Source: a virus (lineage: Duplodnaviria; Heunggongvirae; Uroviricota; Caudoviricetes). Taken from it: a stretch of 30,566 bases of DNA. The translations under genes and the position numbers were made by a program. The number at the start of each line of letters is the position of its first letter. The first letter of the stretch is position 1. This document shows, piece after piece, positions 5,733-17,264 of the stretch. The notes under the pieces were generated by a model, which was given only the letters and a program-made list of their open reading frames with translations, was not told the DNA's origin and did no database searches. The stretch lies in IMG/VR virus record IMGVR_UViG_2609459826_000004, positions 1 to 30,566 of that record; one strand, given 5' to 3'.

Positions 5733-5872
5733 GTGAGATCCTCATTTTTGGGTGTTAGAATCCCCGGACCATTGATAGCGCCCATTGGGTTAACTTTGGT
5801 TTTAATGTTGTTTCCGGTGTAACTTTGGTCGGTGAGGCCGGACATGGCGGGCCCACTTCGGTGGGCTTTCGC

Positions 5873-6778: not shown

Positions 6779-6802
6779 GAAAAAGCCGCTGGTTAGGCGG
6801 CT
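6779..6802 (-). terminator. Intrinsic terminator after the first leftward gene
   Basis: On the minus strand, hairpin AGCCGC / GCGGCT (6784-6802, 7-nt loop) followed by a U-run (complement of A6779-A6784). Overlaps the stop codon of the 6801-7097 gene. Confidence 0.5.
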
Positions 6803-7097
6803 ATTGAGGTTCGCGCGGCTTGTGGTCGAATCGGTGCCACCCGTCAGTTAATTCAAATGGAGCATAACTTTCCCGGCGCTCAGCGAACCCAAGCTCAACA
6901 GACAGAGCGTGCAGCTCATGCCGACGCTTAATCTGTTCCATCGCAATCCAGTCAGCATCGGCATTGCGCTTTTGAGCTTGCTTCGGCGACAGGTCTAAAC
7001 TGTTTATTTCACTTAGTTTCTGCTGACGCTTGATGTCCTGTTTCATATTGCGAAGCGCATTTATCATTGAGTCGATGCGCTTGATGTCGTCGATCAT
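6801..7097 (-). CDS. Hypothetical protein, first gene of the leftward early operon
   Basis: Track ORF extends to 7193, but the internal ATG at 7095-7097 has a GAGGG RBS; gives a 98-aa charged, coiled-coil-like protein (MIDDIKRIDSMINALRNMKQ...). Followed by an intrinsic terminator. Confidence 0.5.
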   Translation of the reverse strand: MIDDIKRIDSMINALRNMKQDIKRQQKLSEINSLDLSPKQAQKRNADADWIAMEQIKRRHELHALSVELGFAERRESYAPFELTDGWHRFDHKPREPQ

Positions 7098-7325
7098 CCC
7101 CTTACCCTCTGTCGTTACCCGCTGATGCGGGAGAAATGCTTTGTGGTGCAGCGCCGGGTGCTTATCTTCCGGTTGCCGTCGATGCAGCTGCAATTCACTG
7201 CACTACAAAACATTCCAGTTATTGCCGGGGTATTTATCCGCGCCCGGCGCGCGCTTTCCCGCTATTCCCCAACAGCAAGAAATCGCTTACTCTTTAAGCT
7301 CCCCAACAGTAGAAAGGATATGTTC

Positions 7326-7547
7326 ATGCAAACCATGCGGACCGTGTGCCCTGACTGCGGAAGTGAGATGTTCAACCAGCCCGATGATTTTGACTTTGAG
7401 ACAAATTTCACCGGCGTCAGTTGTGCTGACTGTGGTCGCGAAATCACTAAGGACGATGTTGTCAATCAGGCCACGGACACGGTCAAAAAACAGATCGACG
7501 ACATGCTCAGGAATTCCCTGAAAGGAGCTGGCTGGAAGTTCAAGTAA
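7326..7547 (+). CDS. Small zinc-ribbon protein (two CxxC pairs)
   Basis: MQTMRTVCPDCGSEMF...VSCADCGREIT has two CxxC motifs about 20 residues apart. AAGGA lies 7 nt upstream of the ATG at 7326. Hand-counted third-position GC is about 47/73 in this frame versus about 36/73 for the antisense ORF 7287-7634. Coding strand still ambiguous. Confidence 0.45.
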   Translation: MQTMRTVCPDCGSEMFNQPDDFDFETNFTGVSCADCGREITKDDVVNQATDTVKKQIDDMLRNSLKGAGWKFK

Positions 7548-7825
7548 CTTTAAAAGCTCCCCGGTCTGGGTAAGCACTTCGCTGGCGTCTACATTGAGCA
7601 GTAGTGGCGCCATTTTTTTATCTGACATATACACCCCTCTGATTGTTTACCGTCAGCCCCTCGCAAAGAGCTGCTGGTAAATCGTTTAGCCATAATTGCC
7701 GCTCTTCCTGAGCCCGCCTATGGTCCGACGCATGGTTTACTGTCGCGCCGTTCGACTGACCGAATCTCCACTTCGCCGCTGGCTAACTTCGCTCAGCTGT
7801 CGATGTTTCGTTTCGATGGGGTAAA

Positions 7826-7900
7826 TTTAGCGTTATGCTAAATTATGCGCAATAGCAAAATGCTAAATTGTTGAATGGTTTTATTTAGCGTATTGATTAA
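7826..7900. promoter_or_regulatory. Left operator region (OL-like), 2-3 repressor-binding palindromes
   Basis: TTTAGCGTTATGCTAAA (7826-7842), AATAGCAAAATGCTAAA (7851-7867), weaker TTTAGCGTATTGATTAA (7884-7900). The first is the exact reverse complement of the OR site at 8729-8745. Confidence 0.6.
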
Positions 7901-7983: not shown

Positions 7984-8661
7984 TTATGGGATGTTTAGTA
8001 TTTTGGCATCAACCACAACGCCGATGATTTTGCAGTTTCCATTAATTTCTAGCATTGGATATGCGGGGTTAAGGGGCTTTAGGAAGCGTCTGCCGGCATC
8101 GATTACAAGCTTCTTAAAGGTCGCTTCGTTATCGCCTTCTAGCTTCGCGACAACCAGCTTTCCGTTGCGCGGCTCGACTTCAGGATCAACAAGTATCGCT
8201 GCTCCCTCGGGTATGCTCAGTCCAGCCGGGGAGGTCATAGAATCCCCTTTAACGTCCAGCCAGAATGAATCTTCTGAGCAGTCAACAGTCGTGTCATACC
8301 AGCGATCTATCGCTCTTCGGTGATAAGGTTCTACAGCTTCCATCCATTGCCCCGCGCTTACCCAGCTGATTACAGGATAACTTCCTTTTGTCTCGTTCAG
8401 TCCTCGAAATGCAACGTTCGAAGGTTCTTCACTGGCGTGTAAAACATCCATCCAGCCAAAAGGCAGATCAAGCGCAGTTTCAATTTTGCGAGCCATCTTA
8501 TCGCCGATATTGCGATGAGGGTTTGGTCCCAGTAGCTGGCTAAGCGCAGCCGGACTTGTCTCGATGAGCTCGGCAAACTGCGCTTTGGTCATTCCAGACT
8601 CGTGCTGACGCTTCTCGTACAGCGCTTCCAGGTTGGCTTTTCTGATTTCTTTATTTTCCAT
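7984..8661 (-). CDS. cI: cI-like phage repressor (N-terminal HTH, C-terminal LexA/S24 peptidase domain)
   Basis: Start placed at the internal ATG 8659-8661 (MENKEIRK...), since the longer track ORF reads through the operator region. N-terminal HTH-like segment (MTKAQFAELIETSPAALSQL), C-terminal S24 signature with GDSM serine and downstream lysine (VVAKLEGD). Divergent from the Cro-like gene across OR. Confidence 0.85.
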   Translation of the reverse strand: MENKEIRKANLEALYEKRQHESGMTKAQFAELIETSPAALSQLLGPNPHRNIGDKMARKIETALDLPFGWMDVLHASEEPSNVAFRGLNETKGSYPVISWVSAGQWMEAVEPYHRRAIDRWYDTTVDCSEDSFWLDVKGDSMTSPAGLSIPEGAAILVDPEVEPRNGKLVVAKLEGDNEATFKKLVIDAGRRFLKPLNPAYPMLEINGNCKIIGVVVDAKILNIP

Positions 8662-8679
8662 ACCTGCATTGTTACTGCT

Positions 8680-8745
8680 TTTAGCAAAATGATAAATGTG
8701 CAAATTGCTAAATGATGCTTGCGTAGTATTTAGCATAACGCTAAA
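8680..8745. promoter_or_regulatory. Right operator region (OR-like) with divergent PR/PRM
   Basis: TTTAGCAAAATGATAAA (8680-8696) and TTTAGCATAACGCTAAA (8729-8745; perfect TTTAGC/GCTAAA arms). Candidate PR -35 TTGCGT (8718-8723) and -10 TAAACT (8742-8747) overlap the second site. 116-bp gap between the cI start and the cro start. Confidence 0.6.
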
Positions 8746-8777: not shown

Positions 8778-9011
8778 ATGAGCACTGAACTACACCGCTG
8801 GCGCAAGGCCGCCACTACCGACGAATGGGCGCAGCTCGCAAAGTTGGCTAACACGACGCCAGGTTACCTGGACCAGATCGCCTACGGAAATCGCCGGGCA
8901 TCTCCAGAAATGGCATCTGCTATCGAGAAAGGCACGAAGAATTTTCACCGCCAGGCTCCGGTCCTAAAAGAAAGCCTGGTATTCGCATCGCCGCGTGATA
9001 CTGCGGCCTAA
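8778..9011 (+). CDS. cro: Cro-like small HTH regulator
   Basis: 77-aa ORF divergent from the repressor; GGAG RBS 6 nt upstream. HTH-like segment DEWAQLAKLANTTPGYLDQIAYGNRRAS. Confidence 0.65.
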   Translation: MSTELHRWRKAATTDEWAQLAKLANTTPGYLDQIAYGNRRASPEMASAIEKGTKNFHRQAPVLKESLVFASPRDTAA

Positions 9012-17161: not shown

Positions 17162-17190
17162 GCCTCGCCATCGTGCGGGGCTTTTTATTT
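17162..17190 (+). terminator. Intrinsic terminator downstream of Q (tR'-like)
   Basis: Hairpin GCCTCGC / GCGGGGC (7 bp, one G-U pair, loop CATCGT) followed by TTTTTATTT. Confidence 0.55.
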
Positions 17191-17264
17191 GCCTGTAGCT
17201 CAGAGGAAAGAGCAACCGCCTTCTAAGCGGTTGGTCGCTGGTTCGAATCCAGCCAGGCGAGCCA
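17189..17264 (+). tRNA. tRNA-Arg (anticodon UCU)
   Basis: Hand-folded cloverleaf: acceptor TTGCCTG/CAGGCGA, D-arm GCTC/GAGC, anticodon stem ACCGC/GCGGT with loop CTTCTAA (anticodon TCT), 5-nt variable loop, T-arm GCTGG-TTCGAAT-CCAGC, discriminator G and encoded CCA. Closely parallels E. coli argU architecture. Confidence 0.8.

What the first reader, a model, noticed from the sequence alone, without database searches (positions are those of the whole stretch)
7287..7634. Ambiguous coding strand downstream of OL: zinc-ribbon ORF (+) versus antisense ORF (-)
Two fully overlapping ORFs both have plausible ribosome-binding sites. The plus-strand ORF (7326-7547) encodes a protein with two CxxC pairs and has the higher third-position GC by hand count (about 47/73 versus about 36/73). 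The minus-strand ORF (7287-7628/7634) sits where a leftward first gene would be expected but has no Arg-rich N-like motif. A CGCTCTT boxA-like heptamer at 7710-7716 is on the plus strand. Either a rightward gene is embedded between OL and the left operon, or a leftward gene of unusual composition is present; both are unusual.
Basis: partly seen in the sequence, partly recalled or inferred. Interest (0 to 1): 0.4.

Follow-up and report, generated by a model that had tools for sequence, protein, structure and literature searches.

The report
Two real genes on opposite strands
The ambiguous stretch is probably not an either/or case: a small zinc-ribbon gene on the plus strand lies entirely inside a leftward gene on the minus strand, both keep gene-like signatures across many prophages, and that makes this a rare candidate for a conserved antisense overlapping gene pair.

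Summary
Both ORFs exist as described. The plus ORF (7326-7547) is certainly a gene. It scores 83 bits against NCBIfam NF047912, "ECs_2282 family putative zinc-binding protein" (cut-off 37). Across 12-17 diverged lineages its pN/pS is 0.20, and its third codon positions vary most. It has its own Shine-Dalgarno site and its own intrinsic terminator (7583-7621) with compensatory changes.

The minus ORF (7628→7287, 113 aa) is not just a shadow. Its SD+ATG is kept in every lineage although the upstream leaders are unrelated. Its 27 codons outside the plus gene contain no stop in 286 codons, against 7-36 in the other five frames, and they show third-position periodicity. The antisense frame is stop-free in 134 of 136 unique homologues. 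The pair also recurs at 41-46% identity in a different setting, beside tail genes.

Inside the overlap, the minus protein shows no constraint beyond what the plus gene imposes (simulation p≈0.05).

The minus ORF lacks an N-like motif because antitermination here is RNA-based: a putL element lies at about 7625-7757. The next gene is phi80 N. The "boxA" heptamer is a chance match inside putL, at 7700-7706.

Functions are unknown. I infer alternate expression of the two strands in lysogenic and lytic states.

The parts
7326..7547 (+). Zinc-ribbon gene, 73 aa, CPxCG...CxxCG, NCBIfam ECs_2282 family. Coordinates include the stop codon.
   Evidence: NF047912 scores 83.3 bits against a cut-off of 37. 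PGAP annotates this strand in a 100%-identical E. coli chromosome. In the overlap pN/pS is 0.20, median dN/dS 0.10, and variability at positions 1/2/3 is 0.18/0.12/0.45. In the close clade there are 18 synonymous and 12 non-synonymous variants. Homologues reach down to 30% identity.
7314..7318 (+). Shine-Dalgarno site (AAGGA) of the plus gene, 7 nt before ATG 7326.
   Evidence: Read from the sequence. AAGGA/AGGA and the aligned ATG are kept in diverged lineages. In HK639 the alternative ATG at 7320 is ATA.
7583..7621 (+). Intrinsic terminator of the plus gene: GGCGUCUAC-loop-GUAGUGGCGCC followed by U7.
   Evidence: Folding. The hairpin is present in the 13 of 14 lineage representatives whose folds show it. 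85% of cells are paired, against 27-50% when the 3' partners are slid. Two pairs show compensatory changes. An invariant U.G pair exists only on the plus strand; on the minus strand it would be a C.A mismatch.
7287..7628 (-). Leftward ORF of 113 aa, first cistron after putL. ATG at 7628-7626, stop at 7289-7287. It fully contains the plus gene in the same codon register.
   Evidence: The ATG lies 25-28 codons beyond the plus stop in nearly all lineages. There are 0 stops in 286 codons of the unique part, against 7-36 in the other frames, and position variability is 0.42/0.32/0.59. Within the close clade, 13 of 25 variants there are synonymous. The frame is stop-free over the plus core in 134 of 136 unique sequences. 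An HMM search finds 35 clusters at 50% identity, 91-158 aa among the near-full-length hits. HK639_45 is annotated on this strand.
7635..7640 (-). Shine-Dalgarno site (GAGGGG) of the minus ORF, 6 nt before ATG 7628.
   Evidence: Read from the sequence. A GAGG/GGGG/GGAG motif sits at the same distance in most of the 12+ lineages, whose upstream leaders are unrelated. The same holds in the tail-gene clade.
7548..7625 (-). The 26 codons of the minus ORF that lie outside the plus gene (MSDKKMAPLLLNVDASEVLTQTGELLK). They also carry the plus-gene terminator.
   Evidence: pN/pS is 0.63 in the minus frame against 0.94-1.39 in four of the other five frames; the fifth, which shares the same third positions, scores 0.63 too but has 7 stops. 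The motif L-x-[IV]-D-[AT]-S is kept in the tail-gene clade, where the GC hairpin is absent. L232 versus L234: 6 of 7 changes fall on third positions. Asp14 is at least 90% conserved over 23 clusters.
7265..7317 (+). Control region of the plus gene. Two ~10-bp direct repeats, TCCCCAACAG (cores 7267-7275 and 7301-7309), bracket a predicted weak sigma-70 promoter (-35 TTCCCC 7265-7270; -10 TACTCT 7288-7293).
   Evidence: Repeat positions. Both copies are conserved in about 13 of 17 lineages, and both change together to TTCCACAG in L008 and L011. The promoter hexamers are my reading of that alignment. The consensus scan found no promoter, so this is inferred.
7224..7254 (.). Two interleaved GC-rich stems, A-B-A'-B' (GCCGGG / CCGCG / CCCGGC / GCGCG), at the left edge of the conserved cassette.
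   Evidence: Both stems keep complementarity through different sequences in about 12 lineages. Strand and function are undetermined.
7625..7757 (-). putL-type antiterminator RNA in the PL leader. The HK022-like core is 7695-7757.
   Evidence: 97.4% identity to the annotated 'putL-like antiterminator RNA' of HK639, and 79% over 63 nt to putL of HK022, HK75 and O276. Rfam has no matching family.
7700..7706 (+). A chance match.
   Evidence: Position and six copies in the window. It lies inside putL on the opposite strand.
6801..7097 (-). Next leftward gene, a 98-aa protein 100% identical to phi80 N.

Best explanation
The interval holds a compact cassette of about 400 bp (roughly 7224-7640) that encodes two proteins on opposite strands in the same codon register.

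(1) The plus strand is a self-contained, moron-like transcription unit. It has a weak promoter flanked by two direct repeats, an SD site, a 73-aa CPxCG zinc-ribbon protein of the ECs_2282 family, and its own intrinsic terminator. It points against the early-left operon, as sieB does in Rac.

(2) The minus strand carries the first cistron of the PL transcript. It starts at a strong SD+ATG just after the putL antiterminator RNA and reads through the antisense of the terminator and of the whole zinc-ribbon gene.

Shown:
- The plus frame is under strong purifying selection.
- The minus ORF's start and its unique 27 codons evolve as coding sequence.
- Stops are avoided across the overlap.
- The pair travels together into two unrelated prophage contexts.

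Inferred:
- In the lysogen, cI shuts PL, so only the plus gene is expressed. It is probably an accessory, exclusion or defence-type protein, possibly regulated through the repeats.
- After induction, put-modified polymerase from PL crosses the cassette. The hairpin does not terminate in that orientation. The minus protein is made, and convergent transcription plus antisense RNA silence the plus gene.
- The two products therefore mark alternate states.
For: Plus gene:
- It scores above the NCBIfam cut-off.
- pN/pS is 0.20 and third-position variability is 0.45 against 0.18 at position 1 and 0.12 at position 2.
- Close-clade polymorphism is 18 synonymous to 12 non-synonymous.
- The terminator shows covariation and a plus-strand-only G.U pair.

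Minus ORF:
- The SD+ATG is kept behind unrelated leaders, and the mosaic junction with Rac lies exactly at the SD.
- The unique part has 0 stops in 286 codons against 7-36 in the other frames, with 3-nt periodicity and pN/pS 0.63.
- 13 of 25 close-clade variants there are synonymous.
- TTA/CTA/TCA occur 0 times in 47 at-risk codons, against 45 A-ending codons in 375 at other four-fold sites (Fisher p=0.0036).
- A phylogeny-aware null gives P=0.04 that all 17 lineages stay open.
- 134 of 136 unique homologues are stop-free over the core.
- In a second context, beside baseplate genes at 41-46% identity, there is again an in-register antisense ORF of 87-97 aa. It has its own SD+ATG after a terminator and the shared N-terminal motif. 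There, 6 of 7 substitutions between close relatives fall on its third positions.
- The three most distant plus homologues lack the minus ORF. This shows the antisense frame is not automatically open.
- The minus family has 35 clusters at 50% identity.

Context:
- sieB is a precedent for a rightward gene in this slot.
- putL identity is supported.
Against: - Inside the overlap the minus protein is no more conserved than the plus gene alone predicts. BLOSUM is 2.46 against a null of 2.33±0.08 (p=0.054), identity is not significant, and minus-frame pN/pS is 1.1.
- Radical changes such as K/E and P/K are tolerated there.
- Its C-terminus varies from 98 to 125 aa.
- Stop avoidance is only p≈0.04 under the conservative null.
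- Part of the conservation in the unique N-terminal region could come from the plus terminator hairpin that it overlaps.
- AlphaFold was inconclusive for the minus protein. One model reached pLDDT 84 and the other four 41-48. No fold match was found.
- There are no expression data.
- The consensus scan found no promoter for the plus gene.
- Neither protein has a known function. The only functional hint is a weak PADLOC hit, PDC-M14A, E=7e-6.
Confidence: 0.62

Rival explanations
1. Only the plus zinc-ribbon gene is functional. The minus ORF is a shadow ORF. It stays open because the in-register antisense frame can be closed only by TTA, CTA or TCA codons, which are few and disfavoured here. Its apparent N-terminal conservation reflects the plus-gene terminator and 3' UTR.
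For: Per-lineage probability of an open overlap is 0.1-0.5. The conservative null still gives P=0.04. There is no excess conservation of the minus protein in the overlap, and minus pN/pS is 1.1. The hairpin overlaps the conserved AP...DA codons. PGAP annotates only the plus strand.
Against: It does not explain the SD+ATG kept at a fixed distance behind unrelated leaders. It does not explain 0 stops in 286 codons, or the third-position periodicity, in the part outside the plus gene, including the 11 codons outside the hairpin (pN/pS 0.63). It does not explain why the same N-terminal motif, SD and ATG recur in the tail-gene clade, where the GC hairpin is absent and 6 of 7 changes are synonymous.
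Confidence: 0.2
2. The minus ORF is translated, but only the act of translation matters. Ribosomes cover the roughly 340 nt of antisense RNA at the head of the leftward operon. This prevents Rho-dependent polarity or duplex formation with the plus mRNA. The peptide itself has no function.
For: The SD+ATG and the open frame are conserved, but amino-acid constraint in the overlap is absent and the C-terminal end is variable. In both contexts the ORF is the first cistron after a regulatory boundary: the PL leader, or a terminator before the baseplate genes.
Against: The unique N-terminal part shows amino-acid-level constraint (pN/pS 0.14-0.63). It also has a motif with a near-invariant Asp across clusters that share less than 50% identity. 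In this window putL should already make polymerase resistant to Rho.
Confidence: 0.14
3. Only the minus ORF is a gene, as annotated in phage HK639 (HK639_45). The plus zinc-ribbon ORF is the shadow.
For: The HK639 record annotates the minus strand only. The minus ORF sits where a first leftward gene is expected and has a strong SD.
Against: In the overlap the positions that are synonymous for the plus frame vary most (0.45 against 0.18). Plus pN/pS is 0.20 against 1.1 for the minus frame. Four Cys in two CPxCG-type motifs are invariant in 16 of the 17 lineage representatives. The plus ORF scores above the cut-off of a curated family. It has its own SD and a covarying terminator. Distant plus homologues exist without any minus ORF.
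Confidence: 0.02

Closest known systems
ECs_2282 family putative zinc-binding protein (NCBIfam NF047912)
   Same: The plus ORF scores 83 bits against a cut-off of 37. It has the two CxxC pairs, the same length, and lies in a prophage.
   Different: Nothing differs; it is a member. The family has no known function. Its entry, as far as the tools show, says nothing about an ORF on the opposite strand.
sieB of Rac, lambda and P22: a rightward, self-contained accessory gene inside the early-left operon
   Same: Same slot, between kil and the repressor, and same orientation against PL. In Rac-like prophages the zinc-ribbon cassette and sieB-ydaF-ydaG are alternative occupants with shared flanks.
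   Different: There is no sequence similarity to SieB. The product is a 73-aa soluble zinc ribbon, not a membrane protein. sieB is not nested inside a gene on the other strand.
Antisense overlapping protein-coding genes of E. coli (e.g. the oloz genes of EHEC EDL933, PMC9927249)
   Same: Two long ORFs lie on opposite strands of one locus, each with its own translation signals. One of the EHEC cases is also in frame -1.
   Different: The EHEC cases rest on RNA-seq, ribosome profiling and mutants, are not in phage regions, and are mostly young and narrowly distributed. The present pair has no expression data. It is, however, conserved across several enterobacterial genera, in two genomic contexts, and down to about 41-46% identity.
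HK022/HK639 put antiterminator RNA followed by the first PL gene (nun in HK022)
   Same: PL is followed by putL and then by a first cistron with no need for a nut site or for N (the HK022 layout is from my own knowledge and PMC9378689).
   Different: The first cistron here is unrelated to Nun and has no Arg-rich motif. The phi80 N gene follows, although phi80's nutL is absent.

Membership tests
NCBIfam NF047912 ECs_2282_CxxC | Whole-protein HMM score above the curated cut-off (37 bits) | tested here: met
   83.3 bits, E=7.9e-24, profile positions 4-60 of 60.
NCBIfam NF047912 ECs_2282_CxxC | Two CxxC pairs forming a zinc ribbon | tested here: met
   CPDC and CADC. All four Cys are invariant in 16 of the 17 lineage representatives. 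The AlphaFold model shows two beta-hairpins followed by a helix, but pLDDT is only 64. Zinc binding itself was not testable.
put-type antiterminator RNA (HK022 putL) | Sequence similarity to an experimentally defined put site | tested here: met
   79.4% over 63 nt to HK022, HK75 and O276 putL, and 97.4% to the HK639 putL-like RNA.
put-type antiterminator RNA (HK022 putL) | Located just downstream of PL on the transcribed strand | tested here: met
   It lies at 7625-7757(-), directly after the transcript-start block 7770-7825 shared with phi80 and HK639.
put-type antiterminator RNA (HK022 putL) | Two-stem structure that binds the RNA polymerase beta' zinc-binding domain and confers terminator read-through | tested here: inconclusive
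   A single-sequence fold gives several stems. No covariation analysis was done. Rfam has no put family. Activity is not testable with these tools.
Lambda N / nut antitermination, for the minus ORF and the heptamer | Arg-rich motif at the N-terminus of the first leftward protein | tested here: not met
   The N-terminus is MSDKKMAPLLLNVD.
Lambda N / nut antitermination, for the minus ORF and the heptamer | boxA on the transcribed (minus) strand followed by a boxB hairpin | tested here: not met
   CGCTCTT at 7700-7706 is on the plus strand inside putL and has 6 copies in the window. phi80's nutL boxA and core are absent from the window.
Functional antisense overlapping gene pair | Both frames open with their own start signals across homologues | tested here: met
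   134 of 136 unique homologues are stop-free over the core. SD+ATG is kept on both strands.
Functional antisense overlapping gene pair | Purifying selection detectable in each frame | tested here: inconclusive
   Plus frame: clear (pN/pS 0.20). Minus frame: clear only in its non-overlapping 27 codons (0.14-0.63). Within the overlap there is no excess constraint (p=0.054) and only stop avoidance (p=0.004-0.04).
Functional antisense overlapping gene pair | Transcription and translation of both strands, and a phenotype for each | not testable with these tools
   No expression data are available. No paper mentions ECs2282.
SieB superinfection-exclusion family | Sequence homology to SieB | tested here: not met
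   No SieB model is among the listed Pfam, NCBIfam or PHROG hits for the plus protein. Only position and orientation are shared.

The most novel reading that the evidence does not exclude
The cassette is a mobile 'strand toggle'. One 400-bp DNA segment encodes two functional proteins on opposite strands, and convergent transcription makes their expression mutually exclusive. The zinc-ribbon protein is made in the lysogen, for example as an exclusion or defence factor that binds its own direct repeats. The antisense protein is made only when early-left or late transcription sweeps through, and it counteracts or replaces the zinc-ribbon protein. The pair has been kept together across enterobacterial genera and has moved between two prophage cargo slots.
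Probability: 0.2. Interest if true: 0.8.

Novelty: new member of a known kind. Interest (0 to 1): 0.55.

Why it matters
Long antisense overlapping protein genes in bacteria and phages are few and contested. Most proposed cases are young and restricted to one species, so evolutionary support is weak. Here one partner is a curated family under strong selection. The other keeps its start signals, open frame and N-terminal motif across genera, in two genomic contexts, and down to about 41-46% identity of the embedded gene. If expression is confirmed, this would be an unusually well conserved test case. It could show how two proteins share one DNA segment, and how convergent transcription couples their expression to the lysogeny-lysis decision.

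There is also a practical point. Annotation pipelines currently pick one strand or the other: PGAP the plus strand, the HK639 record the minus strand. PGAP's over-extended plus call in one E. coli genome also hides the phi80 N gene.

Tried and rejected
- **Rfam:** no family covers the region. There is no put model, so putL identity rests on BLAST against annotated phages.
- **Minus protein, database searches:** Pfam, NCBIfam and PADLOC gave nothing. There was one weak PHROG hit of unknown function.
- **Structure of the plus protein:** pLDDT 64, with only generic zinc-ribbon matches.
- **Test for extra amino-acid constraint on the minus protein inside the overlap:** I simulated neutral third positions on an NJ tree of 17 lineages. 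The result was not significant (p=0.054 for BLOSUM, 0.41 for identity, 0.13 for invariant third positions). I therefore do not claim protein-level selection there. The first version of this simulation timed out.
- **ydaG and ydaF of Rac as homologues of the minus ORF:** rejected. The sequences are unrelated; only the slot is shared.
- **Consensus promoter and terminator scan:** it found no promoter, and it missed the plus terminator because of a 2-nt bulge.
- **A second put copy (putR) in the window:** none found by short-word BLAST.
- **King et al. 2011 on HK639:** could not be read.
- **Literature:** nothing found on ECs2282 or PDC-M14.
- **AFDB fold library:** unavailable.

Full report
**Setting.** The window is a lambdoid prophage.
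- A LexA/S24-type repressor lies at 7984-8700(-) and a cro-like gene at 8778-9011(+). The operator/PL region is around 7800-7900.
- Window 7103-7820 is 93% identical to phage HK639. That record annotates a "putL-like antiterminator RNA", and a hypothetical CDS (HK639_45) on the minus strand.
- The transcript-start block 7770-7825 is shared with phi80 and HK639.
- The next leftward gene, 6801-7097(-), is 100% identical to phi80 N.
- A 100%-identical copy of 7100-7830 lies in the chromosome of E. coli EF7-18-51. There PGAP annotates the plus strand as "ECs_2282 family putative zinc-binding protein".

**The observation.**
- Both ORFs, both ribosome-binding sites, the two CxxC pairs and the GC3 hand counts (47/73 and 36/74) are correct.
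- The frames are in exact codon register. The minus frame can therefore be closed only by plus codons TTA, CTA or TCA. With 2-5 Leu and 1-5 Ser per homologue, a single open antisense frame is unremarkable (P 0.1-0.5).
- The heptamer CGCTCTT is at 7700-7706, not 7710-7716. It occurs six times in the window and lies inside putL on the non-transcribed sense.

**The plus ORF is a gene.**
- It scores 83.3 bits on NCBIfam NF047912 against a cut-off of 37. It has homologues in Escherichia, Enterobacter, Klebsiella, Citrobacter, Hafnia, Kluyvera, Yersinia, Serratia, Pantoea and others, down to about 30% identity.
- I collected about 235 loci and built codon alignments. Over the overlap in 11-12 deep lineages, the plus frame has pN/pS 0.20 (median pairwise dN/dS 0.10). 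The minus frame has 1.1. Mean pairwise differences at plus positions 1/2/3 are 0.18/0.12/0.45.
- Among 45 close relatives, 18 of 30 variants are synonymous for the plus frame and only 7 for the minus frame.
- AAGGA and the ATG aligned with 7326 are conserved.
- Thirty-five nucleotides after the stop, a hairpin GGCGUCUAC...GUAGUGGCGCC is followed by U7. It recurs in the lineages examined. 85% of cells are paired against 27-50% for slid controls. Two pairs show compensatory changes. One U.G pair is invariant and would be a C.A mismatch on the other strand. I read this as the plus gene's intrinsic terminator.
- Upstream, two copies of TCCCCAACAG (7267-7275 and 7301-7309) are conserved, and they change together in two lineages. 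They bracket what I read as a weak -35/-10 pair. The consensus scan did not call a promoter, so the promoter is inferred.
- A rightward, self-contained gene in this slot has a precedent. In K-12 Rac, sieB sits between kilR and ydaF-ydaG-racR in the same orientation. Rac-like prophages carry either sieB or this cassette between the same flanks.

**The minus ORF is not merely a shadow.**
- *Start signals.* An ATG lies 25-28 codons beyond the plus stop, preceded in most lineages by GAGG/GGGG/GGAG. It is present in virtually every lineage, although the leaders upstream are unrelated: putL here, a phi80-type nutL region in L008, and Rac-type leaders elsewhere. The mosaic junction with K-12 Rac falls exactly at this SD.
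- *The 27 codons outside the plus gene.* In an ungapped comparison of 11 lineages, the minus frame has 0 stops in 286 codons, against 7-36 in the other five frames. Position variability is 0.42/0.32/0.59 and pN/pS is 0.63. It is 0.63 also for the 11 codons outside the hairpin. In the close clade, 13 of 25 variants there are synonymous.
- *Stop avoidance in the overlap.* TTA/CTA/TCA occur 0 times in 47 CTN/TCN codons, while 45 of 375 other four-fold codons end in A (Fisher p=0.0036). I ran a conservative phylogeny-aware simulation in which third positions drift neutrally under the plus protein's constraint, with rate and composition taken from the gene itself. It gives P=0.04 that none of 17 lineages acquires a stop, and expects about 4. 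Over all data, 134 of 136 unique homologues are stop-free from the first Cys to the plus stop.
- *A second genomic context.* Plus homologues at 41-46% identity lie between baseplate genes and Bro-N, YafO or other cargo genes, often on the minus strand. They again carry an in-register antisense ORF of 87-97 aa. It starts at an SD+ATG just after an intrinsic terminator and shares the N-terminal motif L-x-[IV]-D-[AT]-S, although the GC hairpin is absent there. Between two close members, 6 of 7 substitutions in the unique part fall on minus third positions (pS 0.29, pN 0.04).
- *A negative control from nature.* The three most distant plus homologues (30-45% identity, other contexts) have an interrupted or start-less minus frame. 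This shows what chance gives.
- *Family breadth.* A profile of the minus protein finds 35 clusters at 50% identity, 91-158 aa among the near-full-length hits. Asp14, which lies outside the overlap, is among the three nearly invariant (at least 90% conserved) residues after the start Met.

**Limits of the case for the minus ORF.**
- Inside the overlap, its protein is no more conserved than the plus gene alone predicts. BLOSUM is 2.46 against 2.33±0.08 (p=0.054) and identity gives p=0.41.
- Radical K/E and P/K exchanges occur.
- The C-terminus varies in length.
- AlphaFold gave one confident model and four poor ones, with no fold match.
- Some of the N-terminal nucleotide conservation is shared with the plus terminator.
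- I therefore rate "translated, with a selected N-terminal part" at about 0.75. I rate the full two-protein reading at about 0.6.

**How it probably works (inferred).**
- In the lysogen, the repressor closes PL. The plus unit is transcribed from its own promoter and stops at its own terminator.
- On induction, polymerase modified by putL (mechanism from PMC9378689) runs leftward. The hairpin lacks a U-tract and has a mismatch in that orientation. The minus ORF is translated as the first cistron.
- Convergent transcription and RNA duplex formation should then shut off the plus gene. The tail-gene context would give the same logic with late transcription.
- What either protein does is unknown. 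The slot, and a weak PADLOC hit (PDC-M14A, E=7e-6), point loosely to an exclusion or defence-type accessory function for the zinc ribbon. The paired repeats suggest that it, or its partner, binds them.

**Comparison with known systems.**
- The plus gene is a member of a named but uncharacterised family.
- The architecture resembles sieB-type morons.
- The overlap belongs with the small set of proposed antisense overlapping genes in E. coli (PMC9927249). It differs in having deep conservation and no expression data.
- N/nut membership fails on both defining features tested.

**Verdict.** The either/or interpretation is replaced by "both", with the plus gene certain and the minus gene probable. 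Interest is moderate to high (0.55). I class it as a new member of a known kind.

Noticed in passing
window 6801-7097(-) and 7625-7757(-): The prophage carries a gene 100% identical to phi80 N. phi80's putative nutL (boxA TGCTTTTTA, core CACGTAAACGTG) is absent from the window, and an HK639-type putL sits in the leader instead. An N protein without its left nut site, next to an RNA antiterminator, is an odd mosaic.
   Followed up: partly
window 7224-7254: Two interleaved GC-rich stems (A-B-A'-B') lie at the left edge of the conserved cassette. Both keep complementarity through different sequences in about 12 lineages. The loop lengths would fit an H-type pseudoknot on the minus-strand RNA, or two alternative hairpins. 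In several lineages the stem-B region reads like a DnaA box (TTATCCACA).
   Followed up: partly
window 7267-7275 and 7301-7309: Direct repeats TCCCCAACAG lie 34 bp apart upstream of the zinc-ribbon gene. Both copies change together to TTCCACAG in L008 and L011, as expected for a pair of operator sites for a cassette-encoded binding protein.
   Followed up: partly
window 7100-7145 (hairpin CCCGCTGATGCGGG at 7118-7131): The leader upstream of the N-like gene is conserved in phi80, HK639 and this window. The adjoining stretch, about 7133-7211, matches several hundred E. coli genomes at 80-88% identity.
   Followed up: no
L003 2893-3447 (E. coli EF7-18-51, identical to window ~6993-7547): PGAP extends the zinc-ribbon CDS to 184 aa from a far-upstream start. 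The extended CDS runs antisense across the phi80 N gene, which is left unannotated there.
   Followed up: no
proteins P0014, P0016-P0018 (Klebsiella): Some homologues of the zinc-ribbon protein have a frame-shifted C-terminus (…VVKSRLTTSSG…). P0014 returns to frame. They may be pseudogenes or sequencing errors.
   Followed up: no
window 5774-5871(+): Rfam match to the isrB Hfq-binding sRNA (38.2 bits, gathering score 35). It starts about 40 nt beyond the 5' end (5732) of the 965-aa RecE-like gene on the minus strand.
   Followed up: no
window 17189-17261(+): A tRNA gene (66 bits) lies inside the prophage window.
   Followed up: no
L232, L234, L235, L238: In the tail-gene context the cassette sits directly after a strong bidirectional-looking terminator and upstream of the sheath-initiator and Baseplate_J genes. 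The neighbouring cargo includes Bro-N, a P22 antirepressor C-terminal domain and a YafO toxin.
   Followed up: partly
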